Virus record (IMG/VR): IMGVR_UViG_3300036893_000027
DNA from: a virus
Length of the DNA stretch: 45,959 nt
Direction: 5' to 3' (one strand)
This document shows, in pieces, positions 6,111-45,374 of this stretch (position 1 is its first letter; each line of letters starts with the position of its first letter). The position numbers were made by a program, and so were the translations under genes. The notes below the pieces were generated by a model. The model ran no database searches and had not been told where the DNA came from. It saw only the letters and a list, made by a program, of their open reading frames with translations.

Positions 6111-6183
<73 letters not shown>

Positions 6184-6254
6184 CCAATTTCTGTAAGTTC
6201 TGTGTTGCTGTGGCACAGATGTAGTGTAGTGAATAACAGTGAAAGGAGGGCCAA

Positions 6255-8472: not shown

Positions 8473-8836
8473 TCTTGAAAAACCCCTTCTTGTCAGGATT
8501 TATCCACATCTACTCGAGAGTGCCTGCCGTAGAAAGTCCTATAGGAGCTATGATATAGGACTTTCCCATAATGATTTAGATACTACTGCTCATATGCTGT
8601 CTGTATTGTCTCACGAGCTTGGACATATAATGCTTGATATTACGGGGTTACCATTTGCTTTTGGACTTTTGAACCAGCCAGATTCTTATTCTGCCCGTAA
8701 GTATGTCTATAGGACGGAGTCTAAGGCTTGGGATAAAGCTAGGTTAATATTTGAAGAGACCAGGAAGCTTTGTCTGCGTAGCTATGAAAGGGATTTAGGA
8801 TTGGAGGATCCTTTTGCTAAAAGACAAACTGATTGA
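8423..8836 (+). CDS. putative HExxH zinc metallopeptidase (ImmA/IrrE-like)
   Basis: ATG 8423 with RBS GGGAGG; motif LSHELGHIMLD. Confidence 0.5.
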   Translation: MLKEKLDVMLPFQSRYSLEKPLLVRIYPHLLESACRRKSYRSYDIGLSHNDLDTTAHMLSVLSHELGHIMLDITGLPFAFGLLNQPDSYSARKYVYRTESKAWDKARLIFEETRKLCLRSYERDLGLEDPFAKRQTD

Positions 8837-10349
8837 TGCTGGTTTGGCTTTTATGGATATGGTTATTGATCAGGTTCCAACCTTGCTGTCTGAAATAATT
8901 GGAACTAAAATCAAGAACAAAGCTGTTGATGCTATTGGTATTAAGTATAAGGGAATACCGAGGCTATTATCAGCTCGAGTTCTTGCGAAGAGAGCAGAAG
9001 ATGGTGCTTTCCTATCTGGCCCACAACAGATAGGATATGCCAAGTTTGCTATTCGCAAGGGTTTACCGGGCCCTGGTCAGAAGTATATGGCGATTGAGAA
9101 TGAACCACACACCGTTGATGATTTCAGTGGTGTGATTAAGGAGGGATATGGCAAAGGACGAAAGACCCTTGTTTGGTCCGGGCCAGCAGCAATCAAGAGT
9201 GCTGACCGCAGATGGATTGGGAGAGTTAATATCCATCTCCATAGCGCAGAACGTGCGGGAGACCACTATGATTTCGTTGCGGAAGGCGTTAGCCCAGGGG
9301 CCACGCAATTTGAAGTTAATATTCCGTCTGGTAAGTTTAGAGGACGGTACGCATTTGTGTCTCCTGACGGATTTTCAGGTGGAGAACGACTCATCACGAG
9401 GATGAAAGATCGTGGTGTATCTCTTGAGAAACCACGGTTTATCCTCAAGGATATTGACGAGCTTGTAGCATTAGATATTCTTGAGTCTCCTGATGCTGTA
9501 GTTGAGTGGAAGCCTGATGGTAGCTTGGGTAATGTTCTTATCCACGAGAACAGAGCTATTATTACCAGCCACAGGAAACAGGTTCCTTCCTATTACGATA
9601 AACTACCAGCTCTTGAATGGTTGGATAATAAGAGTCGATTGTTTACCAATAGACTCTTATTCAAAGGGCCAGATCAACAAGGGACTTTGTTGAGGGCTGA
9701 GCTATTTCATCCTGATGGAGCAGCAAGAGTTGGAGGTATCTTAAACTCTTCCCCTGATAAGGCTCAGTTATTCCAGCGTAAGAATGGGCCTGTTGTTACT
9801 TATGTTTGGGACATTGTCAAGCTCAGGGGAAGGGATGTTAGCAAACGGCCATACATAGAAAGGAGAGCAATATACGAGGATGTAGTAAAAGATATACGCA
9901 GGTATAATAAGAATTGGTTTGTTATACCTTCCGCTGACAAGAACTTTGTTTCATTCTATGAGCGGATTATCCACGATAAACGTGGTCTTCCTTGGAGTGA
10001 AGGTGTACTGATTAAAGAACACACCCACAAGACAGGTGATTCTGTCTATAAGGTTAAGTTCCGTGATACTTACGATGTCATCGTCTTGGATGTATTACAA
10101 GGCGAAGGCAAGCGTAAGGGTATGGTTGGTCAGTTTGTAGTTGATACTGGCCAGGGTGTAGGTGAAGTGGGCAGTTTTATGGCTACAGATAAGCAATTGA
10201 GATGGATGTGGAGAAATCGCAGCCTGCTCAAAGGACAGGTAGCTGAAGTATATGCCCAGGATGTCACGGAAGCTGGAGCACCAAGGGCTGGTGTGTTCTT
10301 CAGGTGGCATCCATCCAAGTCCGATGTTGCTAATTTGATGCCAAGGTAA
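8814..10349 (+). CDS. ATP-dependent DNA ligase with N-terminal LigD-type 3'-phosphoesterase-like domain
   Basis: Motif I EWKPDGS, motif III LRAELFHPDG, IV YVWDI, EGVLIKE, OB domain with motif VI-like PRAGVFFRWHPSKSD; N-terminus HLHSAERAGDHYDFVAEG resembles the LigD PE motif HxHx..HYDFRLE; probable TTG start with RBS GGAGGA. Confidence 0.8.
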   Translation: MLKDKLIDAGLAFMDMVIDQVPTLLSEIIGTKIKNKAVDAIGIKYKGIPRLLSARVLAKRAEDGAFLSGPQQIGYAKFAIRKGLPGPGQKYMAIENEPHTVDDFSGVIKEGYGKGRKTLVWSGPAAIKSADRRWIGRVNIHLHSAERAGDHYDFVAEGVSPGATQFEVNIPSGKFRGRYAFVSPDGFSGGERLITRMKDRGVSLEKPRFILKDIDELVALDILESPDAVVEWKPDGSLGNVLIHENRAIITSHRKQVPSYYDKLPALEWLDNKSRLFTNRLLFKGPDQQGTLLRAELFHPDGAARVGGILNSSPDKAQLFQRKNGPVVTYVWDIVKLRGRDVSKRPYIERRAIYEDVVKDIRRYNKNWFVIPSADKNFVSFYERIIHDKRGLPWSEGVLIKEHTHKTGDSVYKVKFRDTYDVIVLDVLQGEGKRKGMVGQFVVDTGQGVGEVGSFMATDKQLRWMWRNRSLLKGQVAEVYAQDVTEAGAPRAGVFFRWHPSKSDVANLMPR

Positions 10350-18052: not shown

Positions 18053-18417
18053 TAGATGAAGTGCTTCATCAGGAGGCACTTCAGCTGGCCAATTCAGAGG
18101 AGGGCATGAAGCAGTTAGTTCATGCCCTTCTTTTTAGCACATCTGGTTTGGAAGCTGATTTTATTAAGGCACTTAAAAAGTATGTCTACCTAAAACGTGT
18201 CTACCAAATTCAAAGGGCAAGGGAATCAGAAGGATACAACCCAAACAGGAAAAACCTGAACATAGACACAAGCAAGGAAGAAGTAGAAAATGCTCACGAG
18301 CGTATGCGGGAATACGAAATAGGACTGGGTTGTGAATATGGCTTTGACTATGTTGCTCACCTCAAGAAGAGTTGGGGAAAGATACTTTCATTACAAGCAG
18401 CAAAATTGGGACTGTAA
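18049..18417 (+). CDS. hypothetical protein
   Basis: ATGA coupling; its last 10 nt overlap the 5' end of tRNA-Lys. Confidence 0.55.
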   Translation: MIDEVLHQEALQLANSEEGMKQLVHALLFSTSGLEADFIKALKKYVYLKRVYQIQRARESEGYNPNRKNLNIDTSKEEVENAHERMREYEIGLGCEYGFDYVAHLKKSWGKILSLQAAKLGL

Positions 18418-18480
18418 CTCAGTTGGTAGAGTAGCTGACTCTTAATCAGCGAGTCGTGGGTTCGAATCCCACCAGTCCCA
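18408..18480 (+). tRNA. tRNA-Lys (anticodon CUU), CCA encoded
   Basis: Acceptor GGGACTG/CAGTCCC, anticodon arm GCTGA-CTCTTAA-TCAGC (CTT at 18441-18443), T-loop GGGTTCGAATCCCAC. Confidence 0.85.
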
Positions 18481-18538
18481 CCACTTTCTTGAGGCTGTAG
18501 CTCAGCAGTTTCTATGTTACAATGTCCACATTTCATAT

Positions 18539-21957: not shown

Positions 21958-22245
21958 ATGGAGAAGATTCAAGCAGAAGTGCGTTTATATTATACAGGAA
22001 GAACAAGCTGGGAAACTGAGTATTTCACAGCTTCGTCTCTTATGGATGTTCAGATTCAAGCCACAAAAATTGCCAAGGAAAGACAAGCCAGTCATTTCAA
22101 CTTTGGGTTGGCAACACCTGAGGAAAATATCCAAGAAAATCGCAGACTAACTTCCAAAGTCTTTGGGGCAAATATCCCGGTGAAAGATCAAGTAAAAGCC
22201 ATAGAAGGAGCTCTAGGTCTAAGGACTGAAGATGACTCAGACTAA
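21958..22245 (+). CDS. hypothetical protein
   Basis: RBS TTAGGAGAAATA-ATG. Confidence 0.6.
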   Translation: MEKIQAEVRLYYTGRTSWETEYFTASSLMDVQIQATKIAKERQASHFNFGLATPEENIQENRRLTSKVFGANIPVKDQVKAIEGALGLRTEDDSD

Positions 22246-23212
22246 CCCAGAAAAGAAAGAAAGAGAAAGACACAAACCCAAGATTTATATGAACATAGGT
22301 CTTCCTGGTTCCGGTAAAACAACGGAATCCAGGAAGATGATGAATCACGACTCGAATATTATGAGAATTAACAGAGATGATATTCGTGCTATGTGTATGA
22401 ATCATTGGAAGGGAAAGAAGGAAGAATATGTCACTTTATTGGAACAGGAAGCTATTAAGCTTGCCGTTAAAGAACGATACAGTGTTATTATTGATGACAC
22501 CAACCTCAATCCTAACACGAGGAAAAAGTGGGAAAATCTGGCTCTGGAGCTAAAGGTACCTTTCGTTGAGAAAAGCTATCTGGAAGTATCCCTACAAGAT
22601 TGTATTGAAAGGGATGATAACAGAGATAAGAAAGTCGGCAGAGTTGTAATTGAAAATATGGCTCTGAGATACAATCTTATCCCTAAACCAGATAAGCCAA
22701 TTGTTATCTTTGACATCGACGGAACTTTGGCTGACCTTAGTCATAGACAGGGCTACCTAAAAGTATGCAAGGTATGTAAGAAGCTTGAAAAATACCATAT
22801 CGAGAAGATAGAAGGAGCTTGTGGAACTTACACACCGAGCAGGAAAGATCATATATCCTTCTATAATCTTGTCCACGAAGACAAGCCTATTTGGACTGTT
22901 ATAGATTGGATTAACGCTTGCTCGGAGGATTATTATCCAATCTGTGTCTCTGGTCGACCTATGAATCTAACAGGTGAGTCTACCCACTGGTGGCTTAGTA
23001 TGTATCACGTCAATTATCATCATCTTTTTATGCGGGAAAGTGGTGATTTTAGACAAGATACGATTGTTAAACAGGAGATTCTTGACAAGATTCTGAAGTG
23101 GGTACCCAAAGATCAAATTCTATTCACGGTTGATGATAGACCTTCTATCGTTGAAATGTGGAAGAAGAATGGAATCCGCTGCTATGATGTGGGAAAAGGA
23201 ATAGAATTCTAA
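22232..23212 (+). CDS. pnkp: polynucleotide 5'-kinase/3'-phosphatase (T4 Pnkp-like)
   Basis: N-terminal P-loop GLPGSGKTT kinase; C-terminal HAD phosphatase motif VIFDIDGTLAD (DxDGT) with downstream VDDRP. Confidence 0.85.
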   Translation: MTQTNPEKKERERHKPKIYMNIGLPGSGKTTESRKMMNHDSNIMRINRDDIRAMCMNHWKGKKEEYVTLLEQEAIKLAVKERYSVIIDDTNLNPNTRKKWENLALELKVPFVEKSYLEVSLQDCIERDDNRDKKVGRVVIENMALRYNLIPKPDKPIVIFDIDGTLADLSHRQGYLKVCKVCKKLEKYHIEKIEGACGTYTPSRKDHISFYNLVHEDKPIWTVIDWINACSEDYYPICVSGRPMNLTGESTHWWLSMYHVNYHHLFMRESGDFRQDTIVKQEILDKILKWVPKDQILFTVDDRPSIVEMWKKNGIRCYDVGKGIEF

Positions 23213-25020: not shown

Positions 25021-26229
25021 ATGTCAGATACGCATAAATGTGAAGTAGTTAGGGTGTTCCCTAAACAACATCCTAATCCGAAGTGCACAAAACTCGACTT
25101 AGTTGAAGTCTATGGGTATACCTGCTGTGTCCAAAAAGGTCAATTCGAACAAGGGCAGTTGGCTATCTACATTCCTCCTGACTCGGTCGTTCCTCAGAAA
25201 AAGCAATTTGAATGGCTCTGGGAAGATATTGAACTTCTCGAAGGCCAAGAAGTCCCCATCCGTCGCCGTAGGATCAAAGCGAAGAAACTCCAAGGTGTAG
25301 CCTCTGAAGGATTACTGATACCTATCAGTGATTTTGGCTATCACGAATATATAACTGATAGTCAATCTATGCCTACAATGAAGGAAGGACAGGATGTTGC
25401 TTCCATCATTGGAGTAACACACTATGAACCTCCTTGTGATGAAACAAGTGGTGATTCCGAGAAAGCCCCTTGTAAGATCAGGAAGAAACGCTATCCCAAG
25501 ACATTTATGGGTTGGGTTTGGTTTATTCTTGATAAGCTGGGACTGCTAAAAAAAAAAGATCAAACAGAAACCACGGCAGAAACAGCAAGCTTTGAAGTCC
25601 CAATCTATGATTTAGAACCTTGGCAGAAACACAGGTCAAGAATAGAAGAAGGGGAAGAAGTTCTAATCACTGAGAAAATCCACGGAGAGAATAGTAGATT
25701 TACCTGGATGAACGATAGGCTTTATTGCGGCAGCCACTATCAATGGAAGAAGAACATAGCAGGTTCAAGATGGTGGGAATGTGTTAAACAGAATCCCTGG
25801 ATTGAATCTTTCTGTAAACAAAATCCAGGTTTAGTTATGTATGGCGAACTTGTTCCTACACAGAAGAGATACAACTATGGACAGAAAGAGGGCAAGTTCA
25901 GACTGTTTGGTTTTGACGTTTATAAACCAGCAGAAAGAAGGTATCTAAGTTATGAAGAGCTTCAAGCGCTCCCATTCGAGTACATATATGGAGAAGCTGA
26001 GGATTCAATTCACGCCAACATTTTGCACCCGTTTCATTGGGTGCCAACAATTAAGAAAGGCCCATACACTCAAGAAGATATTAGGCAGCTTTCGGTTGGC
26101 CAGTCGTTGGTACCGGGGGCAACCAATATCCGAGAAGGAATTGTTATCAGAACAATCAAAGAAAGGAAAGATTATAAAGGGAGGATATGCTTCAAGTTAG
26201 TATCAACTGATTATCTGGAAAAGGATTAA
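25021..26229 (+). CDS. ATP-dependent RNA ligase, Rnl5-like (NgrRnl/DraRnl family)
   Basis: N-terminal domain EVVRV..GYTCCVQKGQFEQGQLAIYIPPDS matches the NgrRnl N-terminal OB-like domain (GWTCVIKKGEFKQGD..VYFEIDS); nucleotidyltransferase motif I TEKIHGENSRF, plus FRLFGFDVY and EGIVIRT..K motifs; no C-terminal OB domain. Confidence 0.8.
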   Translation: MSDTHKCEVVRVFPKQHPNPKCTKLDLVEVYGYTCCVQKGQFEQGQLAIYIPPDSVVPQKKQFEWLWEDIELLEGQEVPIRRRRIKAKKLQGVASEGLLIPISDFGYHEYITDSQSMPTMKEGQDVASIIGVTHYEPPCDETSGDSEKAPCKIRKKRYPKTFMGWVWFILDKLGLLKKKDQTETTAETASFEVPIYDLEPWQKHRSRIEEGEEVLITEKIHGENSRFTWMNDRLYCGSHYQWKKNIAGSRWWECVKQNPWIESFCKQNPGLVMYGELVPTQKRYNYGQKEGKFRLFGFDVYKPAERRYLSYEELQALPFEYIYGEAEDSIHANILHPFHWVPTIKKGPYTQEDIRQLSVGQSLVPGATNIREGIVIRTIKERKDYKGRICFKLVSTDYLEKD

Positions 26230-26231
26230 AG

Positions 26232-26435
26232 TTGCCCATCAAAAGATTTAATGTTAATATGGATCTTGGGAACATATGGGGAAGGCTCTCCGAAACTTGG
26301 GGAGCCTTTTTCTTGTTGTGCTCTCCCAGATATAGAAAGATGGTAAAGAGAATCGACTTTGTAAGCAGCTGGACTAAAAGGAGAAGAGTCTGGATGAGGC
26401 TTAGGAGGGACAATGATAAAAATACCACGCCCTAA
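26232..26435 (+). CDS. small basic protein (TTG start, weak)
   Basis: ORF in the gap between genes. Confidence 0.3.
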   Translation: MPIKRFNVNMDLGNIWGRLSETWGAFFLLCSPRYRKMVKRIDFVSSWTKRRRVWMRLRRDNDKNTTP

Positions 26436-26622
26436 AGTGCCAATAGCACAAAGGTATTATTATAACTTCTGGGCCAGATTATTGTATACTTGGAACTTGA
26501 GGATATTTTACCATCCTAATTCAAGAAATCACGTAGGTTGTCTAAGAATGAGACAGAATGAAATATATGGGACACCTAGAATACAGGAGAGAAAATGGCA
26601 CTACCCGGACACACATCAGTAG
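26413..26622 (+). CDS. small basic protein
   Basis: Strong RBS TTAGGAGGGACA-ATG. Confidence 0.5.
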   Translation: MIKIPRPKVPIAQRYYYNFWARLLYTWNLRIFYHPNSRNHVGCLRMRQNEIYGTPRIQERKWHYPDTHQ

Positions 26623-27581
26623 GAGTTATTATAGGTAGGTTTCAAATACCAGCTCTTCACGAAGGACATAAGAGACTGTTTGAAACTGTATTCAACAGAC
26701 ATAAGAGAGTAGTTGTTCTGTTGGGAATTCCAGCTTGGTTAGGTGGGACAATAAATCCACTTGACTATCAGACTCGAAAGGCTATGATATTAGAAGATTA
26801 TCCAAATGCTCAAGTTGAATATATCAAAGATTGCCAAACCAACGAAGCGTGGAGTAGGAACGTTGACAATAGACTTGGAGAACTCTACCCGTTCTCAGAG
26901 ATTATATTGTATGGAGGTAGAAAGGGTTTTACAGGGGCGTATTGTGGGAAGTTTCAAACTATTGAAACTCTGGAAGATCCGAAATATCATGAAGAAAACG
27001 CAAGCGAAATGCGTAAACAAGCTTCGGTCTTACCGCTCTCGTCAAAAGATTTTAGGACGGGTGTAATATATGGGGCATTTTCGGTTCCAGAAGGGCCCCA
27101 AATGTGTATTGATGGCGCTGTTCTACGAGAGCTTGACAGCAAGGAACTACAAAAAAAGGTTCAAGTTCTTCTCATCGCTAAAGCTAATGAGAAGATGTGG
27201 CGCTTCCCTGGCGGCAAGCTTGACAATGGGGATGTTGACTTGGAGGCAGCTATACTCAGGGAGGTACGTGAAGAGACAGGACTGGAAGTAAGCAACCCCA
27301 GATATATAGCCAGTGGCCCTGTAAAGGACTGGAGAGCGGACAGAGCAGGCATTCAGCTGTATAGTGCCTTATTTGTCCTTGATTACGTCTACGGGGCTGC
27401 TAAGGCCCAAGACGATGCTGCCTTATCTACCTGGCTGGATTTAGAAGGTCTAACAATAGAAAATATGGAGGAATGCCACCGTCCTTTCCTCTTGGCTTTG
27501 AAGAATTGGTATAATACTTACAAAACAAAGGAGATAGAATGCGAGACAACTTCCTGCTCCAAACAGATAGTTATAAGCTAA
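26595..27581 (+). CDS. bifunctional NMN adenylyltransferase / Nudix hydrolase (NadM-Nudix type)
   Basis: N-terminus GVIIGRFQIPALHEGHKRL (NadM GRFQPxHxGH); C-terminal Nudix box GGKLDNGDVDLEAAILREVREETGLEV. Confidence 0.8.
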   Translation: MALPGHTSVGVIIGRFQIPALHEGHKRLFETVFNRHKRVVVLLGIPAWLGGTINPLDYQTRKAMILEDYPNAQVEYIKDCQTNEAWSRNVDNRLGELYPFSEIILYGGRKGFTGAYCGKFQTIETLEDPKYHEENASEMRKQASVLPLSSKDFRTGVIYGAFSVPEGPQMCIDGAVLRELDSKELQKKVQVLLIAKANEKMWRFPGGKLDNGDVDLEAAILREVREETGLEVSNPRYIASGPVKDWRADRAGIQLYSALFVLDYVYGAAKAQDDAALSTWLDLEGLTIENMEECHRPFLLALKNWYNTYKTKEIECETTSCSKQIVIS

Positions 27582-28957
27582 CTCACTGGAAGCAGTATCC
27601 TAAAGACGCAGAGGTAGTTTATAGTTACCTTATGCCTCGTGGAGCTGTTCAAGGAGAAGCTATTCATCACGTTAATATAGTCAATTCAAGTATGTTGACT
27701 TATTACTTGAGGACTTATTTACAGGGCCAGCTTTTTGATATGGATGATATCATTGAAGCTGAGCAGTTCTGTGATGACCATTTTGGTAAAAAGGGCTACT
27801 TTAACCGAGCTGGATGGGAACACATTCTTAAGGAACATAATGGAAGGATTCCAGTTAAGATAAAAGCTCTTCCTGAAGGAATGATAGTTCCTATTGGTAA
27901 TCCTCTGATGACGGTTGAAAACACAGATGAAAGAGTCCCGTGGATAACAAACTACATAGAATCTTTGCTACTGAAAGTGTGGTATCCTGTTTCCGTCGCT
28001 ACGTTAGCAATGAATATAAGGAAAGTTATATCAGGTTATTTGGAAAAGACAGGGGATGTAGCCCAATTGCCATTCAAGTTGCACGACTTTGGATACCGTG
28101 GCGTATCCTCAGAGGAATCAGCAAAGCTGGGCGGAGCGGCCCACTTGACGGTCTTCCAAGGAAGCGACAATCTTACTGGTATTAGAATGCTAAAGAAGAT
28201 GTATAGAGAAGCAGGTATGCCTGGTTTCTCTGTTCCAGCTTCGGAACATTCTACTATGACCAGCTGGGGAAAAGACCACGAGATTGACGCTTACATCAAT
28301 ATGATGGAAGCTTACCCCACAGGTATCATTTCTATTGTTAGTGATAGCTATGATATCTTCAACGCTTGTGATAAGATTTTTGGAGTTGAGCTGAAAGATA
28401 GAATTCTAAAGAGGGATGGAGTTGTAGTAATTCGTCCTGATTCAGGAGACCCAGCTGAGACAATAGCTTCGGTTCTTACCATTCTTGAGAAGCATTTTGG
28501 AACTACAAAGAATGAAAAGGGCTACAAGGAGCTTCCAGCTCAAGTCAGACTACTTCAAGGAGATGGAGTAAACCTTGCAAGTATTGAACGCATTCTTAGT
28601 ATGATGAGGTGGCGTTCTTTCTCTGCCAATAACATTGTTTTTGGTATGGGTGGGGCTCTTCTCCAGAAGATGGACAGAGATACACTTGGATTTGCTTTCA
28701 AGTGCTCTGCTATCAAGCGAGCTGGAGTTTGGCACGATGTCTTTAAAACAGCCAGTGGAAAGAAGTCTCTTAGGGGACGCTTGGCCGTCATAAAAAATGC
28801 CAAGGGAGAAATTGAAACTATCTCTGGTGATCCTGACTTGGTTCTTGGAGAAGATCTACTTGGAATCAAGTTTATGAACGGAGGTTTGTATGAATTCCCA
28901 ACCCTACAAGGGATAAGAGAGTATACAAAGATCCAGGAACCTGTTCTAATAGGATAG
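27539..28957 (+). CDS. nadV: nicotinamide phosphoribosyltransferase
   Basis: Starts MRDNFLLQTDSYKLTHWKQYP (NAMPT hallmark DSYKxTHxxQYP); length 472 aa. Confidence 0.9.
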   Translation: MRDNFLLQTDSYKLTHWKQYPKDAEVVYSYLMPRGAVQGEAIHHVNIVNSSMLTYYLRTYLQGQLFDMDDIIEAEQFCDDHFGKKGYFNRAGWEHILKEHNGRIPVKIKALPEGMIVPIGNPLMTVENTDERVPWITNYIESLLLKVWYPVSVATLAMNIRKVISGYLEKTGDVAQLPFKLHDFGYRGVSSEESAKLGGAAHLTVFQGSDNLTGIRMLKKMYREAGMPGFSVPASEHSTMTSWGKDHEIDAYINMMEAYPTGIISIVSDSYDIFNACDKIFGVELKDRILKRDGVVVIRPDSGDPAETIASVLTILEKHFGTTKNEKGYKELPAQVRLLQGDGVNLASIERILSMMRWRSFSANNIVFGMGGALLQKMDRDTLGFAFKCSAIKRAGVWHDVFKTASGKKSLRGRLAVIKNAKGEIETISGDPDLVLGEDLLGIKFMNGGLYEFPTLQGIREYTKIQEPVLIG

Positions 28958-28965
28958 GAGAGTAG

Positions 28966-30138
28966 ATGAAACTTTACAATATGTTAGATGTAAATCTACT
29001 CCACAAGTATTGGGTAGAGAGAATTGTATCAAAACAGACTCACCCAGAGCACAAAAACTTAGAGATCTATAACTACACTCATCGTGCTCAACACGAGAAC
29101 ATATGGGACAATATAACGGAACAATGTAGAGGATTAATAGTAGATTCCAATACGGGCGATGTATTAGCTCGTCCTTTTCGTAAGTTCTTTAATCTCAACA
29201 CTTCTTTCAAACCTGAGACTATGGAAGAGAACTTACCATATAAAAAGCCAGATTGTATACTTGAGAAGATGGATGGTTCTCTTGGCATTTTATATCCTTA
29301 TAACAATAAGCAATATATTGCAACACGAGGTTCATTTTCTTCTGATCAAGCAAGATGGGCAAATACTTGGTGGGATAGATTAGCATTTTATAACACTGGA
29401 TACCCTGAGTTTCCAAAAGGTTACACTCCATTATTCGAAATCATTTACAAGGAGAATAGAATTGTCGTTGACTACCAGTTCGAAGGTTTGGTCTTACTTG
29501 GACTTGTCCAGATTGAGACTGGTTTTGAGCTACCGTTTACGGAGGTTTGCGAGGTGGCCAGGAGGAACGGACTACAATCACCTAAATCTATTGAAGGGAG
29601 CTTGGAGGAGATCACATCCCGCCAGGAAAGTAATACAGAAGGGTTTGTATTACAGTTTTGGTGCCGCAAAGCCCCCGTCCCTCTACGGCTTAAAGTAAAA
29701 ACCGAGGAGTATAAAAGGCTACATAAAATAATAACTGGCACAAACCCTAAGGGTATATGGGAACACCTGAAAGAAGGTGGGGATCCAGATGCTCTTTGGG
29801 CTAACACTAATAACCAGTTCTTTCACTGGTGCCAGGGTTGGATCAATACTTTTCAAAGGATGTATAAGGAACTTGAAGATGAAACACTCAAAGCATTCGG
29901 TAGAGTTTGTGCCAATGTATCGGAAACACTTTACAGCACACACGGGACACTGGACGCACCGGCTATCAGGGGGGCCCACGCAGTTCTTATTCAACAGGAG
30001 CAAGTTCACTATCAGCCGATACTCTTCGCTATGTTATCAGGTAAGGGATACAAAAAACAAATATGGAAGTCCTTAGAACCTAAAATCCAAGGAAAGGATG
30101 TTTTCCTAAGAAATGGCGACGAATTTAACGGTATTTAA
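28966..30138 (+). CDS. rnlA: RNA ligase 1 (T4 RnlA-like tRNA repair ligase)
   Basis: CRGLIVD..RPFRKFFNLN..ILEKMDGSLGI collinear with T4 Rnl1 CRGIMFE..RPMEKFFNLN..ILTKEDGSLVS (motif I KxDGSL). Confidence 0.85.
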   Translation: MKLYNMLDVNLLHKYWVERIVSKQTHPEHKNLEIYNYTHRAQHENIWDNITEQCRGLIVDSNTGDVLARPFRKFFNLNTSFKPETMEENLPYKKPDCILEKMDGSLGILYPYNNKQYIATRGSFSSDQARWANTWWDRLAFYNTGYPEFPKGYTPLFEIIYKENRIVVDYQFEGLVLLGLVQIETGFELPFTEVCEVARRNGLQSPKSIEGSLEEITSRQESNTEGFVLQFWCRKAPVPLRLKVKTEEYKRLHKIITGTNPKGIWEHLKEGGDPDALWANTNNQFFHWCQGWINTFQRMYKELEDETLKAFGRVCANVSETLYSTHGTLDAPAIRGAHAVLIQQEQVHYQPILFAMLSGKGYKKQIWKSLEPKIQGKDVFLRNGDEFNGI

Positions 30139-30290: not shown

Positions 30291-30671
30291 ATGAAAGCCA
30301 CGGTAATTGAATATGAAAAACTCTATTACGAGGAGGATTGCCCAGTAGGTATTACTGGACTCTCTACATTTCATGCAACACACCCGATATTTGGACAAGC
30401 CAATCCACCTGTGTACCTCAAAGGAGATATCAGCGAACTTAAAATCGTCAAAGAAACCTTTTGTTGTCCTGATATGGAGAATGCGTACAGGATGGGTACC
30501 GTGGGCTTCGGAGAAAGAAAGAACGAAACTTACAGGAACAAAGTGGCTGAGGTTTTCATTCATATCGAGGGAGGTTCAAAAAACGATATAGCTATTCCTT
30601 TCTGTCTGTGGTGTAAAGCCCCTGTCTTTACACAAGAAAATATGAACTATGTCGAGTATTCAAGACGATAA
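30291..30671 (+). CDS. hypothetical Cys-rich protein
   Basis: RBS AAAAAGGAGATATA-ATG. Confidence 0.6.
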   Translation: MKATVIEYEKLYYEEDCPVGITGLSTFHATHPIFGQANPPVYLKGDISELKIVKETFCCPDMENAYRMGTVGFGERKNETYRNKVAEVFIHIEGGSKNDIAIPFCLWCKAPVFTQENMNYVEYSRR

Positions 30672-31272
30672 GAAATTAGGAAACTGGATAAGAAGATGGA
30701 ATTATATAAGCGAACCTAATATGGAACATTCAACTCATCCAAAGGTAATAAAGACTCCATCTGTGGTATTACTTAATCCTAAGTATCCTCAGAATGTAGC
30801 TTCAGCTATTAGAGCTTGTAGTTGTTTTGGAGTTAGCACTCTTATATGGACTGGGGAGAGGGTTAACTTTTCTAAGCTGGACAGAATTCCCAGGGAAGAG
30901 AGAATGAAAGGATATAGAGATGTATACTGGGAGATCAACGAACGGCCACTTGATCTTTTTCCTGGCTCGATCCCGATTTGCGTCGAGATTACTCCTAACG
31001 CACAAAATCTGGCAACTTTTACTCACCCACCCAACGTGGTGTACATCTTTGGCCCAGAGGACGGCAGCGTTAACCAAGTCTATAGAAGACTATGCCACTC
31101 GTTCGTCTTTATACCTGCGGCACATTGTCTTAACCTCGCTGCGGCGTTAAATGTTGTTCTTTATGACCGCCGAATAAAGAGACAAGCATTGGGTTTAGAA
31201 CCTACGGCTATGAAAGACATTCTTAAAGAAACCAGAGGGCCAATAGACATTCCTGGTTGGAATGGTAGTTAA
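30649..31272 (+). CDS. SPOUT (SpoU/TrmH/TrmL-type) RNA 2'-O-methyltransferase
   Basis: VVLLNPKYPQNVASAIRACSCFGV, YIFGPEDGSV, FIPAAHCLNLAAALNVVLYDR are the three SPOUT motifs; start could alternatively be ATG 30721. Confidence 0.75.
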   Translation: MSSIQDDKKLGNWIRRWNYISEPNMEHSTHPKVIKTPSVVLLNPKYPQNVASAIRACSCFGVSTLIWTGERVNFSKLDRIPREERMKGYRDVYWEINERPLDLFPGSIPICVEITPNAQNLATFTHPPNVVYIFGPEDGSVNQVYRRLCHSFVFIPAAHCLNLAAALNVVLYDRRIKRQALGLEPTAMKDILKETRGPIDIPGWNGS

Positions 31273-31897: not shown

Positions 31898-31979
31898 TGA
31901 ACAACTTGATACAGTTGACGATTTAATCAGCCAGAAGATATTGGAGAAAACCAATGCTGGAGAGAATAAATCAATTTAA
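31782..31979 (+). CDS. hypothetical protein
   Basis: Textbook RBS AAAAGGAGTAATA-ATG; out-of-frame overlap with the previous gene. Confidence 0.5.
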   Translation: MSQENPLAPAPIQVFRDLLKDFPLEILIKVKERMLIVHSEQLDTVDDLISQKILEKTNAGENKSI

Positions 31980-32418
31980 TGATAAGTATGCTTTCTTATC
32001 CAATTTTTATGCATCAGAGGTTCTATATGAAGATCTTGTATATCCAACGGTAGAACACGCTTATCAAGCTGCCAAGACTACTGACATCGAAATAAGAGAG
32101 AATTTTGCTTGGAGGATCCTTACCGCAAAAGAGGCAAAACAAGAAGGTAGAAAGCTTATTATCAGAAAAGATTGGGAATCCATCAAGCTTAAAGTGATGG
32201 AAGAACTGCTAAGAAAGAAGTTCTTAGATCATATGAACTTAAGATTTCTCTTGAAAACAGAAACTGCCTGGTTAGAAGAAGGTAACTACTGGCACGATAA
32301 CTTCTGGGGTAATTGTAGTTGTGTAAAGTGCTCAAACATAGAAGGAAAGAATAACCTTGGTATGCTACTAATGAATATTAGATTTGAATTAAGAAAGTTT
32401 AGGATGATATTTGAATGA
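31954..32418 (+). CDS. NADAR (YbiA/DUF1768) domain protein
   Basis: DKYAFLSNFYASEV..YPTVEHAYQAAK is the NADAR signature (FLSNF..YPTxEHxYQA). Confidence 0.75.
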   Translation: MLERINQFNDKYAFLSNFYASEVLYEDLVYPTVEHAYQAAKTTDIEIRENFAWRILTAKEAKQEGRKLIIRKDWESIKLKVMEELLRKKFLDHMNLRFLLKTETAWLEEGNYWHDNFWGNCSCVKCSNIEGKNNLGMLLMNIRFELRKFRMIFE

Positions 32419-32574
32419 TGAATGCATCAGCTTTTTGGCACAAGCTTGGCACAACATTTAATTTCTTCAGTAGGTATAGACTAAATAGATGGTATTCAGA
32501 AAGTGCAGGTGAGTTGGGAAAAAAATGGGAGCCTAAGATCAGAAAGTTTGGGAAGGCGAAGCGAGGAAAATAAA

Positions 32575-33183
32575 ATGGATTGGTTTACAGCCGACTGGCA
32601 TCTAAATCATAAAAATATCATAAGGTTCTGCAATAGACCTTATACAGACATTGAACAGCATAACGAAGCTTTAATAGCTAATGTAAATGCTGTAGTTAAA
32701 CCTGATGATCGTCTTTTTAATCTTGGGGATGTTACCTTTGGTGGCAACCTTGCTCTTATTAGAGCAAGTATAGTATGTAAGAATGTGTTTGTTATTCTTG
32801 GGAATCACGACAAAGAATCTCAACTAAGAACTCATTTCACCATCTTACCACAATGTTATGAGTATAAGAACAATGGACTTAACTTAGTTCTTTGTCATTA
32901 TGCTATGCGGGTTTGGAACAAATCCCATCACGGAGTTGGACATTTGTATGGACACTCTCATAACACTATGCCATCACTACCTGGGGTGGCTTCTTTTGAT
33001 TGTGGGGTCGACGGGAATAATTATAGACCTTGGTCTGAGGAAGAAGTAAAAACCGAGCTTAAAAGATTAGTCGCTTTAGCACCAGAAGTAAACGGAGAAC
33101 ACCTACATCATGAGTTTAGACATACAGGACGGGAAGAGAATCAAAATACTGGTTCGAAAGAACCTGAAAATGTCGCCAGGTAA
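32575..33183 (+). CDS. calcineurin-like metallophosphoesterase
   Basis: ADWHLNH, LGDVTFGG, ILGNHDKE, LCHYAM, YGHSH give the full MPE motif set; ATG 32575 with RBS GCGAGGAAAATAAA. Confidence 0.75.
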   Translation: MDWFTADWHLNHKNIIRFCNRPYTDIEQHNEALIANVNAVVKPDDRLFNLGDVTFGGNLALIRASIVCKNVFVILGNHDKESQLRTHFTILPQCYEYKNNGLNLVLCHYAMRVWNKSHHGVGHLYGHSHNTMPSLPGVASFDCGVDGNNYRPWSEEEVKTELKRLVALAPEVNGEHLHHEFRHTGREENQNTGSKEPENVAR

Positions 33184-33454
33184 GATAGCAGCCCAAGCAG
33201 TTCACGCTGCCTTAGGACTAAACGAAGCATTGGAGCAAGACTTAGAAGAATGCGATTATCCAGATAGAATAGCTCTTAGTGCCAAACTTTCGGTCGTAGT
33301 CTTAGAGGTAAGTGATGCTAAGTATAAGGCAGCAATACAGCAAGGTGTGGAGAGTGGGCGTACACAATATGCTGTTTTCGACGCTGGGCGCACTGAAGTG
33401 GCGGCGGGTACAGAAACAGTATGTGCTTTCCTTGAAGAACAACCCAAAGTATAA
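33110..33454 (+). CDS. peptidyl-tRNA hydrolase, Pth2 family
   Basis: KILVRKNLKMSPGKIAAQAVHAALG .. AVFDAGRTEV..GTETVCAF matches Pth2 ([25 protein letters not shown]..). Confidence 0.75.
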   Translation: MSLDIQDGKRIKILVRKNLKMSPGKIAAQAVHAALGLNEALEQDLEECDYPDRIALSAKLSVVVLEVSDAKYKAAIQQGVESGRTQYAVFDAGRTEVAAGTETVCAFLEEQPKV

Positions 33455-33582: not shown

Positions 33583-33665
33583 GGCGGGGTGGTGGAATTG
33601 GCAGACACATCAGACTCAAAATCTGACGGTTAACAGCCATGAGAGTTCGAATCTCTCCTTCGCTA
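33583..33665 (+). tRNA. tRNA-Leu (anticodon CAA), class II with long variable arm; CCA encoded
   Basis: Acceptor GGCGGGG/CTTCGCT (4 WC + 3 G-U), anticodon arm TCAGA-CTCAAAA-TCTGA (CAA at 33617-33619), 14-nt variable arm, T-arm GAGAG-TTCGAAT-CTCTC. Confidence 0.8.
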
Positions 33666-33682
33666 CCAATTTTAGGAGGTTT

Positions 33683-43828: not shown

Positions 43829-44536
43829 ATGGCCAAGCTACTTAAATGGAACTTATCAAAACTTCAAACACCTTCCAGACCTCTTACAGGGCCGCTTCCT
43901 GACACTTATATTAGGGAACTAACCCGACTATGTGAAGAATTACAAGGGGTTTATCTATCAGGGATTCAGGTTGGAGATGCTCGTTGTTTTGCTATCCCCA
44001 ATCCTAATATGAAGAAGTTTCCTATTATTTACAACCCTGTTATATTGGAACAATATGACGAAATCAAATCTGAAAAAGAAGGTTGCTTGTCATTTCCTGG
44101 TTTGTGGATCTCGATCCCACGCTATAAGTATATTGAAATCTCGTATAAAGATGGCAACTGGAAAGAGTGTAGGGCAACTTTTGGAGCTGAAGATGCTTCG
44201 ACTGAAGAAGCTTTACTTGCCAAAGCTATTCAACACGAGATTTTTCATATGCAAGGCCACGTTATTCACGAAAGAATGAAAAATGCCAAATCAAAAATCA
44301 AAGTTACAGCCGAAATACTCAAAAGATCGTTGGAGCAAAACAAAAGAAATGGTGTACCAAGTATCGTGGAAGGGCCATTGGAGCTGGACCCGAGTACTTT
44401 GCCAGCTATCATCCTCTCTGAGAATAAGGAAGATAATGGACGACTATTATGCGAAGAAAACAGGGGTTTAGATACGGTGACAATGGAACATATAGATGGT
44501 GGTATGCAGACAGAATCAAAAACTCAGGAGCTTTAA
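43829..44536 (+). CDS. def: peptide deformylase
   Basis: Motif 2 EGCLSFPG and motif 3 QHEIFHMQGH (HExxH), with an upstream GIQVGD motif-1-like Gln. Confidence 0.8.
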   Translation: MAKLLKWNLSKLQTPSRPLTGPLPDTYIRELTRLCEELQGVYLSGIQVGDARCFAIPNPNMKKFPIIYNPVILEQYDEIKSEKEGCLSFPGLWISIPRYKYIEISYKDGNWKECRATFGAEDASTEEALLAKAIQHEIFHMQGHVIHERMKNAKSKIKVTAEILKRSLEQNKRNGVPSIVEGPLELDPSTLPAIILSENKEDNGRLLCEENRGLDTVTMEHIDGGMQTESKTQEL

Positions 44537-45043: not shown

Positions 45044-45332
45044 ATTCAGTGCTCACGATATTGCTAATTTTATAAGCTGGGCTACAGATTTCTGGATATC
45101 AATCCAAGAATACCCTGAACACTGGGCACGAAGATATACCATAGTAGAAATAAGGAAAAAGACAGATAAGATTTGGTATCCGGGCTGTTGGAAAGCTATT
45201 GTAGTATCTCCAGATTTAGTGCTACACTGCGAAAAGCTTGGACTTCTGAAAAGAACTAAAAGATTCGGAGTAAGAGACTTTCTTAGCACGGGTACCCAAG
45301 AGGCCAAAGGGGACGGTCTGCAAAACCGTTAA
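45036..45332 (+). CDS. hypothetical protein whose 3' end overlaps tRNA-Cys
   Basis: ATGA coupling at 45036; no in-frame stop until 45332, so its last 47 nt are shared with the tRNA gene. Confidence 0.4.
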   Translation: MTEFSAHDIANFISWATDFWISIQEYPEHWARRYTIVEIRKKTDKIWYPGCWKAIVVSPDLVLHCEKLGLLKRTKRFGVRDFLSTGTQEAKGDGLQNR

Positions 45333-45359
45333 TCGTGGGTTCGAATCCCACTTCGTGCT
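45286..45359 (+). tRNA. tRNA-Cys (anticodon GCA), CCA encoded
   Basis: Acceptor GCACGGG/TTCGTGC (two G-U), anticodon arm ACGGT-CTGCAAA-ACCGT (GCA at 45320-45322), T-arm GTGGG-TTCGAAT-CCCAC, discriminator U. Confidence 0.8.
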
Positions 45360-45374
45360 CCAGATTAGGAAGAT

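What the first reader, a model, noticed from the sequence alone, without database searches (positions are those of the whole stretch)
26595..28957. Two-gene NAD+ reconstitution pathway (NadV plus NMNAT-Nudix)
A NAMPT homolog (DSYKLTHWKQYP) and a bifunctional NadM-type NMN adenylyltransferase fused to a Nudix hydrolase (GRFQ..HEGH plus the Nudix box REVREETG) are sufficient to rebuild NAD+ from nicotinamide and from ADP-ribose via Nudix/PRPP routes. This resembles the phage NARP2 counter-defence that overcomes NAD-depleting immunity such as Thoeris, DSR, SIR2 and TIR effectors. It is also classic KVP40-type NAD salvage.
Basis: partly seen in the sequence, partly recalled or inferred. Interest (0 to 1): 0.6.

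Follow-up and report, generated by a model that had tools for sequence, protein, structure and literature searches.

The report
Phage NAD+ salvage gene pair
Two adjacent genes in what looks like a very large phage encode the enzymes that rebuild the cofactor NAD+ from nicotinamide; this is the already described KVP40/NARP2-type pathway, here with an unusually divergent second enzyme, so it is real but ordinary.

Summary
ORF 26595-27581 is a two-domain NMN adenylyltransferase + Nudix protein (NadM/NatV type). ORF 27539-28957 is a textbook nicotinamide phosphoribosyltransferase (E 2e-125 to mammalian NAMPT, all catalytic residues kept).

The NadM-Nudix protein belongs to a divergent, compact subfamily found mostly in uncultivated large phages. 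It falls far below NCBIfam cut-offs and shows no BLAST hit to KVP40-type NatV. Profile, profile-profile and fold comparisons still tie both domains to solved NadM-Nudix enzymes.

In 58 of 60 dereplicated viral relatives, a NAMPT gene lies within the ≤10 kb flanks fetched. In 57 it is downstream on the same strand.

The pathway needs PRPP, and the window encodes no PRPP synthetase. "Sufficient from ADP-ribose" therefore holds only with the host enzyme.

Verdict: a new member of a known kind (KVP40 NadV/NatV, NARP2). The biochemistry is well supported. The counter-defence role is inferred from published work on KVP40. Interest is low to moderate.

The parts
26278..26312 (+). Intrinsic-terminator-like hairpin (16-bp stem, then a T-rich tail). 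It lies just after the upstream RNA ligase gene and probably marks the end of the preceding transcription unit.
   Evidence: terminator scan. RNA fold -31.4 kcal/mol, z = -4.5, 0 of 200 shuffles fold as well.
26585..26589 (+). Shine-Dalgarno AGGAG, 5 nt upstream of the nadM-Nudix ATG.
   Evidence: Read directly from the sequence.
26595..27581 (+). Bifunctional NMN adenylyltransferase / Nudix hydrolase gene (NadM/NatV type, compact divergent subfamily), 328 aa.
26616..27029 (+). N-terminal nucleotidyltransferase (NMNAT) domain, residues ~8-145. Motifs: GRFQIPALHEGH (14-25), NPLD..R (54-61), D79/W86, and NASEMR (135-140; S137 and R140 correspond to the SxTxxR motif).
   Evidence: Invariant residues in A1 and in 119 homologs. 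Profile hits to 2qjt, 2qjo and 1f9a. hhalign against classical phage NatV.
27096..27509 (+). C-terminal Nudix domain, residues ~168-305. The box is G207-x5-D213-x8-R222-E223-V-R-E226-E227-T-G-L. Downstream conserved residues are D245-W-R247, D273-D274 and H295.
   Evidence: Pfam NUDIX 4.1e-14. Conservation counts. Fold matches to the NadM-Nudix ADPRase domain and to the ADPR-bound NrtR Nudix domain.
27528..27533 (+). Shine-Dalgarno AAGGAG, 5 nt upstream of the NAMPT ATG, inside the 3' end of the nadM-Nudix gene. The 43-nt overlap suggests translational coupling.
   Evidence: Read directly from the sequence. A 53-nt overlap is kept in relatives L005/L006.
27539..28957 (+). Nicotinamide phosphoribosyltransferase gene (NadV/Nampt), 472 aa.

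Best explanation
This is a two-gene NAD+ salvage (reconstitution) module carried by a large, probably huge, phage.

Proposed mechanism:
1. The NAMPT homolog condenses nicotinamide with PRPP to give NMN.
2. The N-terminal domain of the upstream protein adenylylates NMN with ATP to give NAD+.
3. The fused Nudix domain most likely splits ADP-ribose (and perhaps NAD(H)) into AMP plus ribose-5-phosphate. This removes the NADase product and feeds ribose-5-P back to PRPP through the host's PRPP synthetase.

The genes overlap by 43 nt, each has its own Shine-Dalgarno sequence, and they lie just downstream of a strong terminator-like hairpin. They are probably expressed together, along with the downstream Rnl1-type RNA ligase.

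The expected biological effect is to keep NAD+ available during infection, including in hosts whose Thoeris, DSR, SIR2 or TIR-type defences destroy NAD+.

Shown here: gene identities, domain architecture, conservation of catalytic residues, and near-obligate linkage of the two genes in viral relatives. Inferred: the enzymatic activities, the Nudix substrate, co-transcription, and the counter-defence role.
For: NAMPT:
- NCBIfam PRK09198 at 547 bits, above its 405-bit cut-off.
- E 2e-125 to mammalian NAMPT. In the printed alignment the counterparts of Y18, F193, R196, D219, H247, R311, D313, G353-D354, G383-G384 and R392 are all identical.
- It groups with Nmnat-linked Nampts, not with Prs-linked NARP1-type Namats. 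It carries the DSYK / HDFGYRG / QGDGV / GMGG signatures rather than DFYK / HDFSMRG / YGDSI / GxGSF (12 sequences only).

NadM-Nudix:
- AF2 model with pLDDT 89.3.
- The best Foldseek hits over ~350 columns are the three solved bifunctional NMNAT/ADPR pyrophosphatase entries 2qjt, 2r5w and 2qjo, E ~1e-16.
- The family profile hits both domains of 2qjt (2.6e-28) and 2qjo (2e-23).
- hhalign against classical phage NatV, including KVP40-like ValKK3, gives probability 99.9%, E 6e-35, over 278 columns.
- R15, F16, H22, H25, D79, W86, R140, R222, E223, E226, E227, D273, D274 and H295 are invariant or nearly so in 119 homologs.

Linkage:
- Of 60 dereplicated IMG/VR loci encoding this subfamily, 58 have a NAMPT homolog within the ≤10 kb flanks fetched. 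In 57 it is downstream on the same strand, with a median gap of 244 nt. One of the two exceptions had only 163 nt of downstream sequence.
- The same gene order occurs in Tunturi_5, VspSw_1, DSS3P8 and Xanthomonas phage X1.

Function of the kind:
- The KVP40 Nampt + Nmnat pair abolished Thoeris and DSR2 defence and raised NAD+ (preprint 10.1101/2024.02.11.579819).
Against: - No activity was measured.
- The NMNAT-Nudix protein scores far below the NCBIfam equivalog cut-offs (51 vs 397 bits) and gives no tblastn hit to KVP40-type NatV at 1e-5.
- Its HxGH loop has a 2-residue insertion.
- The canonical Gx5E glutamate of the Nudix box is replaced by Asp in 92 of 119 homologs, and is not conserved in the rest. 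An extra residue precedes REx2EE.
- Nudix substrate specificity cannot be read from sequence.
- No PRPP synthetase is encoded in the window, so the ADPR-recycling branch depends on the host.
- The window contains no virion structural gene. The phage assignment rests on gene content and on relatives in huge-phage genomes.
Confidence: 0.82

Rival explanations
1. Same chemistry, different purpose. The pair is a general auxiliary metabolic module that boosts NAD+ supply for a large, fast-replicating phage, and was not selected specifically against NAD+-depleting immunity.
For: NARP2 raises NAD+ even in cells without a defence system. NadV is found in about a third of jumbo phages. This was, from my own knowledge, the original interpretation in the KVP40 paper (Lee, Li & Miller, J Bacteriol 2017), which I could not retrieve.
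Against: The neighbours are not metabolic genes. They are of RNA-repair and ADP-ribose-processing type: PNKP, two RNA ligases, a SpoU methylase and NADAR. That fits a conflict/counter-defence region. The only DNA ligase seen in the window is the ATP type, so there is no obvious NAD+-consuming phage enzyme here. The two purposes are not mutually exclusive.
Confidence: 0.3
2. The Nudix domain of this divergent subfamily has a substrate other than free ADP-ribose. Candidates are NAD-capped RNA, NADH, or an ADPR-derived immune signal such as gcADPR. In that case the fusion combines NAD+ synthesis with signal or cap destruction.
For: After NadM-Nudix, the next fold matches are the ADPR-binding NrtR Nudix domain, the NAD(H)/NAD-cap hydrolase NudC, and RppH. 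The first half of the Nudix box is non-canonical. The gene sits among RNA-end-processing genes. PMC9503650 proposes that phage Nudix proteins target ADPR-derived signals.
Against: The residues shared outside the box (D245, D273-D274, H295) align with the invariant FD, DDA and H positions of classical NadM-Nudix/NatV. That argues for the same substrate class. No specific evidence points to another substrate.
Confidence: 0.1
3. The Nudix domain is a non-catalytic ADP-ribose sensor, as in NrtR regulators, and only tunes NMNAT activity.
For: The best single-domain fold hit is the NrtR Nudix domain bound to ADPR (3gz8). The Gx5E glutamate is lost.
Against: R222, E223, E226 and E227 are kept in 116-119 of 119 homologs at 34-55% overall identity. 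That is the pattern of an active hydrolase. From my own knowledge, inactive NrtR-type domains have degenerate REx2EE cores.
Confidence: 0.05
4. The phosphoribosyltransferase is a NARP1-type Namat that uses ADPR-PP, not PRPP.
For: Namat and Nampt are homologous. KVP40 Nampt shows some activity on ADPR-PP in vitro.
Against: No Prs/Adps-like gene is in the window. The protein clusters away from Prs-adjacent Namats and carries the Nampt-type motif variants. It is paired with an Nmnat, which is the NARP2 hallmark.
Confidence: 0.03

Closest known systems
Vibrio phage KVP40 NadV + NatV (NAD+ reconstitution pathway 2, NARP2)
   Same: The two enzymes and domain set are the same: Nampt plus an NMNAT-Nudix fusion. 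The predicted reactions are the same (Nam + PRPP -> NMN; NMN + ATP -> NAD+; Nudix on ADPR/NAD(H)). Both occur in large phages. The window NAMPT is ~40% identical to the KVP40-like NadV. The NadM-Nudix family matches the KVP40-like NatV profile at 99.9% probability.
   Different: The NMNAT-Nudix protein is too divergent for BLAST to find KVP40-type NatV. It lacks most of the ~45-residue interdomain insert, has a 2-residue insertion in GRFQ..HxGH, and has a Gx5D-x8-REx2EE box. Here the genes are adjacent and overlapping, whereas the KVP40-like nadV locus shows no natV within 6 kb.
Bacterial NadM-Nudix / NadV salvage (Francisella tularensis and Synechocystis NadM, PDB 2qjt, 2r5w, 2qjo)
   Same: Two-domain architecture and fold. 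These are the best sequence-profile and Foldseek matches over the full length.
   Different: Only ~18-19% identity. The relative domain orientation in the model differs (TM ~0.38 overall, rmsd ~14 A). The context is viral rather than chromosomal.
Compact NadM-Nudix subfamily of huge phages (LR745206, LR756500/502/504; Tunturiibacter phage Tunturi_5 gp218 + gp217)
   Same: The same subfamily at 29-36% identity, with the same nadM-Nudix -> NAMPT order. It accounts for 315 stretches in IMG/VR.
   Different: The window's clade (52-56% relatives) has overlapping genes and sits inside a PNKP / RNA ligase / NADAR block. Some other members pair with a very divergent 553-575 aa NAMPT-like protein.
NARP1 (Adps + Namat) and NARP3 (PnuC + NadR)
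   Same: The same end result, which is phage-driven restoration of NAD+. Namat is a NAMPT homolog.
   Different: NARP1 needs a PRPS-like Adps next to Namat, which is absent here. NARP3 uses nicotinamide riboside import and NadR; neither was seen in the window regions examined.

Membership tests
NARP2 / KVP40-type phage NAD+ salvage | A Nampt of the PRPP-using clade, not an Adps-associated Namat. | tested here: met
   NCBIfam PRK09198 at 547 bits, above its 405-bit cut-off. E 2e-125 to mammalian NAMPT with the catalytic residues identical. NJ tree and motif variants separate it from Prs-adjacent Namats (small sample).
NARP2 / KVP40-type phage NAD+ salvage | An Nmnat homologous to KVP40 NatV encoded by the same phage. 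| tested here: met
   hhalign of the window family against classical NatV (including KVP40-like ValKK3): probability 99.9%, E 6e-35, both domains. Direct tblastn at 1e-5 does not reach KVP40-type proteins.
NARP2 / KVP40-type phage NAD+ salvage | No Adps (NARP1) in the same genome. | tested here: inconclusive
   No Prs/Adps homolog in the 46-kb window (tblastn E<=0.01) or among called genes within +/-10 kb. The rest of the ~100-kb contig and genome was not seen.
NARP2 / KVP40-type phage NAD+ salvage | Encoded by a phage. | tested here: met
   Closest relatives are in huge-phage genomes and IMG/VR contigs. The window has unidirectional genes, 4 tRNAs, and PNKP, Rnl1, HNH, transglycosylase and RNase H hits in PHROGs. 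No virion structural gene lies within the window.
NARP2 / KVP40-type phage NAD+ salvage | Restores NAD+ and overcomes NAD+-depleting defence. | not testable with these tools
   Needs infection assays and NAD+ measurement.
NadM-Nudix bifunctional NMNAT / ADPR pyrophosphatase | N-terminal HIGH-type nucleotidyltransferase with (H/T)xGH and SxxxxR motifs and the NMN-site NP..R / D..W residues. | tested here: met
   R15, F16, H22, H25, P55, D57, R61, D79, W86 and R140 are conserved in 117-119 of 119 homologs; N54 is kept in 109 of 119. They align with the classical invariants. There is a 2-residue insertion before HxGH.
NadM-Nudix bifunctional NMNAT / ADPR pyrophosphatase | C-terminal Nudix domain with the full Gx5Ex7REUxEExGU box. 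| tested here: inconclusive
   The REUxEExGU half is intact: R222, E223, E226 and E227 are kept in >=116 of 119. The Gx5E glutamate is Asp (92 of 119) or variable, and the spacer is 8 residues, not 7. The catalytic core is met but the full signature is not.
NadM-Nudix bifunctional NMNAT / ADPR pyrophosphatase | Passes the curated family model. | tested here: not met
   Best NCBIfam PRK05379 model scores 51 bits against a 397-bit cut-off. Pfam CTP_transf_like is not reported at E<=0.01. Membership is therefore at the level of a distant subfamily, supported by profile and fold.
NadM-Nudix bifunctional NMNAT / ADPR pyrophosphatase | ADP-ribose is the preferred Nudix substrate. | not testable with these tools
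   Only homology-based inference is possible. D245, D273-D274 and H295 align with conserved classical positions.

The most novel reading that the evidence does not exclude
The compact huge-phage NadM-Nudix subfamily is more than a diverged NatV. Its atypical Nudix domain may destroy an ADPR-derived immune signal or NAD-RNA cap. The operon it shares with the Rnl1 ligase, near PNKP, a second RNA ligase, a SpoU methylase and NADAR, would then be one co-regulated island that counters NAD+ depletion, tRNA cleavage and nucleic-acid ADP-ribosylation together.
Probability: 0.1. Interest if true: 0.6.

Novelty: new member of a known kind. Interest (0 to 1): 0.25.

Why it matters
The finding adds a clean example of the NARP2/KVP40-type NAD+ rebuilding pathway in the poorly sampled huge-phage lineages. 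It also shows that a divergent, compact NMNAT-Nudix subfamily escapes the curated models I tried and BLAST from KVP40, yet is almost always followed by NAMPT. Surveys seeded with the KVP40 protein may therefore undercount NARP2 in uncultivated large phages, although I did not test this. The finding does not open a new question. The chemistry and the counter-defence role were already established for KVP40, and the NadV+NadM association in jumbo phages is already published.

Tried and rejected
- DNA-level search of the region against 50,697 phage records found only short ~70% patches inside NAMPT and NADAR. There is no close sequenced relative.
- Direct tblastn of the NMNAT-Nudix protein did not reach KVP40-type NatV. 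I bridged through VspSw_1 and profile-profile comparison.
- The sigma-70 promoter scan gave 26 sites against 22 +/- 4.5 expected. I make no promoter claim.
- Terminator-like sites overall were also at the chance level (8 vs 7 +/- 2.9). Only the 16-bp hairpin at 26278-26312 stands out.
- The KVP40 paper (Lee et al. 2017) could not be retrieved by DOI. Statements about it are second-hand or from memory.
- I looked for KptA/Tpt1, Macro, Prs/Adps and NadR in the neighbourhood, using precomputed Pfam calls and tblastn. None was found.
- I considered that the small ORF 26413-26622 (69 aa, overlaps the nadM start) is part of the module. It has no family hit on record and I left it out.
- I considered a bacterial-chromosome origin (nadM-nadV operons exist in bacteria). 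I rejected it on gene content and on the viral relatives.
- The classical '+15/16 proline' ADPRase marker is absent. By my own reading of the printed alignment, it is also not at that position in the solved Francisella NadM-Nudix sequence, so it is uninformative.
Full report
**Observation**

ORF 26595-27581 (+) encodes 328 aa and ORF 27539-28957 (+) encodes 472 aa. The quoted strings are all present:
- GRFQIPALHEGH at residues 14-25 of the first protein.
- REVREETG at residues 222-229 of the first protein.
- DSYKLTHWKQYP at residues 10-21 of the second protein.

The ORFs overlap by 43 nt in different frames. The NAMPT start cannot be moved downstream. Its alignment to mammalian NAMPT begins at residue 4, and it includes the counterpart of the active-site Tyr18 at residue 12.

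Each gene has a Shine-Dalgarno sequence 5 nt before its ATG. AGGAG lies at 26585-26589 and AAGGAG at 27528-27533.

A 16-bp GC-rich hairpin followed by a T-rich tail lies at 26278-26312, just after the upstream RNA ligase gene. It folds at -31.4 kcal/mol with z = -4.5. Only 8 nt separate the NAMPT stop from the next gene, an Rnl1-type RNA ligase at 28966. The pair therefore probably starts a transcription unit that runs into that ligase. This is an inference. The promoter scan was no better than shuffled sequence.

**The NAMPT gene**

This gene is unambiguous.
- Pfam NAMPT_N 8.8e-27 and NAPRTase 1.3e-53.
- phrog_448 at 8e-151.
- NCBIfam PRK09198 at 547 bits against a cut-off of 405.
- E 2e-125 to mammalian NAMPT chains.

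In the printed alignment, all the following counterparts are identical: Tyr18, Phe193, Arg196, Asp219 (nicotinamide selectivity), His247 (autophosphorylation), Arg311, Asp313, Gly353-Asp354, Gly383-Gly384 and Arg392. The numbering and roles of these residues come from my own knowledge of the human enzyme.

I compared twelve phage proteins in a small neighbour-joining tree. The window protein groups with the Nampts that sit next to an Nmnat: KVP40-like PVA8, VspSw_1, DSS3P8, Xanthomonas X1, Tunturi_5 and the metagenomic relatives. It lies apart from two NARP1-type proteins that sit directly behind a PRPS-like gene (Staphylococcus phage Fi200W and Bacillus phage PJN02).

It also carries the Nampt-type motif variants DSYK, HDFGYRG, QGDGV and GMGG. 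The two Namat-type proteins have DFYK, HDFSMRG, YGDSI and GxGSF instead.

**The NMNAT-Nudix gene**

This protein is real but divergent.
- Pfam sees only the Nudix domain (4.1e-14, residues 190-300).
- CTP_transf_like is not reported at E<=0.01.
- The best NCBIfam bifunctional NMNAT/Nudix model gives 51 bits against a cut-off of 397.
- tblastn against 50,697 phage records finds only 12 records. Five are at 29-36% identity: four huge uncultured phages of 462-642 kb and the 308-kb Tunturiibacter phage Tunturi_5. Seven are T5-like Vibrio phages at 21-24%. None is KVP40-type.

The large protein database holds 192 homologs, many on contigs of 200-370 kb. An alignment of 40 of them (A1) and conservation counts on 119 show three groups of conserved positions. 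Counts are out of 119.

Nucleotidyltransferase signature:
- R15 119, F16 119, H22 119, H25 118.
- N54 109, P55 118, D57 117, R61 119.
- D79 118, W86 119.
- R140 119.

Nudix catalytic core:
- G206 and G207 119 each.
- R222 117, E223 118, E226 116, E227 119.

Downstream Nudix positions:
- D245 118, W246 117, R247 119.
- D273 and D274 119 each.
- H295 117.

A family profile hits both domains of the solved bifunctional NMNAT/ADPR pyrophosphatases: 2qjt at 2.6e-28 and 2qjo at 2e-23. It also hits the archaeal NMNAT 1f9a at 1.4e-9.

An AlphaFold model built on A1 has mean pLDDT 89.3. Its best Foldseek matches in the PDB are 2qjt, 2r5w and 2qjo over about 350 columns, at E ~1e-16. The overall TM-score is only ~0.38 because the two domains are oriented differently. 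Next come the ADPR-bound NrtR Nudix domain, NudC and RppH.

Profile-profile comparison against five classical phage NatV proteins, including KVP40-like ValKK3, gives probability 99.9% and E 6e-35 over 278 columns spanning both domains.

Three differences from the classical family are consistent across the subfamily:
- A 2-residue insertion between GRFQ and HxGH.
- Loss of most of the ~45-residue interdomain segment.
- A Nudix box of the form G-x5-D-x8-REUxEExGU. The canonical Gx5E glutamate is Asp in 92 of 119 homologs and otherwise variable, and the spacer is one residue longer.

**Gene linkage**

A scan of IMG/VR with the A1 alignment found 315 confirmed stretches, and I fetched the best 80. 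After dereplication at 90% identity there were 60 clusters:
- 58 have a NAMPT homolog within the ≤10 kb flanks fetched.
- In 57 it lies downstream on the same strand.
- In 29 the gap is 300 nt or less; the median gap is 244 nt.
- Of the two clusters without NAMPT, one had only 163 nt of downstream sequence.

The same order, nadM-Nudix then NAMPT, is seen in Tunturi_5, VspSw_1, DSS3P8 and Xanthomonas phage X1. Such tight and ancient linkage across proteins only 30-40% identical is strong indirect evidence that the divergent N-terminal domain still consumes the NAMPT product, NMN.

**What the pair cannot do alone**

NAMPT needs PRPP. The Nudix route from ADP-ribose yields ribose-5-phosphate, and a PRPP synthetase must turn that into PRPP. 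The window has no Prs or Adps homolog (tblastn E<=0.01). None is called within +/-10 kb on the parent contig either.

By contrast, 17 of the 60 related clusters have a Prs homolog nearby. The example tested is a genuine ribose-phosphate diphosphokinase, with TIGR01251 at 268 bits against a cut-off of 113. The two NARP1-type PRPS-like proteins fall below that cut-off at 70 and 101 bits.

So "sufficient to rebuild NAD+ from ADP-ribose" is true here only with the host Prs. I did not see the rest of the genome.

**Context**

The window is part of a 99.9-kb metagenomic contig. Its features are phage-like:
- Predicted genes are almost all on one strand.
- There are four tRNA genes.
- There are many ORFs without family hits, plus PHROG hits to HNH endonuclease, transglycosylase and RNase H.

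I saw no virion structural gene in the window. The phage assignment therefore rests on gene content and on the relatives.

The NAD genes are embedded in a block of RNA-end-repair and ADP-ribose-related genes:
- PNKP, 22232-23212.
- An RNA ligase with a PHA02142 OB domain, 25021-26229.
- An Rnl1-type ligase, 28966-30138.
- A SpoU-family RNA methyltransferase, 30649-31272.
- A NADAR protein, 31954-32418.
- A metallophosphoesterase, 32503-33183.
- A PTH2 homolog.

A relative whose NadM-Nudix is 52% identical keeps the PNKP / RNA ligase / NadM-Nudix / NAMPT / Rnl1 / NADAR order, with a 53-nt overlap, and adds Thg1. Across the 60 viral clusters, 17 have PNKP, an RNA ligase or Thg1 within the flanks. 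I have no null expectation for that number.

Published surveys already note that NadV and NadM co-occur in jumbo phages. They also note that phage Nudix and NADAR genes lie in early regions with RNA-repair functions (PMC9503650).

**Mechanism and comparison with what is known**

The best explanation is the classical two-step salvage:
1. Nam + PRPP -> NMN.
2. NMN + ATP -> NAD+.

A fused ADPR/NAD(H) pyrophosphatase completes the module. This is the KVP40 NadV/NatV pathway. The Sorek laboratory named it NARP2 and showed that it abolishes Thoeris and DSR2 protection and raises NAD+ when the KVP40 genes are expressed or knocked into SBSphiJ (preprint 10.1101/2024.02.11.579819).

The window meets the NARP2 criteria that can be tested in sequence:
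- The Nampt clade: met.
- An Nmnat homologous to NatV: met.
- A viral setting: met.
- No adjacent Adps: met within the window only.

As a NadM-Nudix family member, it passes on architecture, fold and catalytic residues. It fails the curated model cut-offs and one position of the Nudix signature. I file it as a distant subfamily whose activities are inferred.

**Rivals**

- Same chemistry but a general metabolic purpose. This is not exclusive with counter-defence.
- A different Nudix substrate, such as an NAD cap or an immune signal.
- A non-catalytic sensor Nudix. The near-invariant REx2EE core argues against it.
- A NARP1-type Namat. The clade, the motifs and the absence of Adps argue against it.

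**Verdict**

The finding is correct and well located, but it describes an already known kind of system. The modest new content has three parts. The Nmnat-Nudix partner belongs to a compact, divergent subfamily typical of huge phages, which the curated models and KVP40-seeded BLAST used here do not recover. That subfamily is almost invariably followed by NAMPT. In this lineage the pair overlaps and sits in an RNA-repair/NADAR block.

Interest is 0.25.

Noticed in passing
window 40269-42692 (+): An 807-aa protein has a major-vault-protein shoulder domain (Pfam PF11978, 3.9e-30), a Vault_3 repeat and a weak SPFH/Band 7 match. It hits eukaryotic major vault protein chains in the PDB (E 1e-14, residues ~428-746). 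Among 50,697 phage records its only homologs are three huge uncultured phages (LR756500, LR756501 and LR756503, 462-735 kb; 42-43% identity). A vault-protein-like gene in huge phages is unusual.
   Followed up: partly
window 22232-23212, 25021-26229, 28966-30138, 30649-31272, 31954-32418, 32503-33183, ~33170-33454: The NAD genes are surrounded by an RNA-repair/protection and ADP-ribose set: PNKP, two different RNA ligases (PHA02142-OB type and Rnl1 type), a SpoU RNA methyltransferase, NADAR, a metallophosphoesterase and PTH2. The order is conserved in a 52%-identical relative that also has Thg1 (L005/L006). It looks like a counter-defence island. Enrichment was not tested against a null.
   Followed up: partly
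L015 6001-10671; 17 of 60 IMG/VR clusters (e.g. L020, L024, L036, L040): Many relatives of the module carry a Prs homolog a few kb from NadM-Nudix + NAMPT. The one checked (L015) is a genuine PRPP synthetase, with TIGR01251 at 268 bits against a cut-off of 113. That gives a three-gene set that could close the ADPR -> R5P -> PRPP -> NMN -> NAD+ loop without the host Prs. The window lacks it.
   Followed up: partly
L002 8932-10593 (LR745206); L014 6934-8661; L048, L054, L073, L078, L096: A deeply divergent, longer (553-575 aa) NAMPT-like clade, only 22-26% identical to the window NAMPT, sits directly behind the same compact NadM-Nudix in some huge phages. It has ALAHRN instead of ASEHST around the catalytic His. 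Its substrate is unknown.
   Followed up: no
window 6111-6186, 18408-18483, 33583-33668, 45286-45362: Four tRNA genes (Met-CAT, Lys-CTT, Leu-CAA, Cys-GCA) are scattered singly among the + strand genes rather than clustered.
   Followed up: no
window 35949-37769, 39006-39815, 43829-44536, 8814-10349: Other cargo includes a 606-aa protein with a C-terminal OmpA peptidoglycan-binding domain, a stand-alone ABC-type ATPase and a peptide deformylase homolog. There is also a 511-aa ATP-dependent-type DNA ligase, supported only by weak Pfam matches below the gathering score plus PHROG 2e-24.
   Followed up: no
window 30291-30671 (+): A 126-aa Cys-rich ORF lies between Rnl1 and the SpoU methylase. It has no Pfam or PHROG hit and overlaps the SpoU start by 23 nt.
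   Followed up: no
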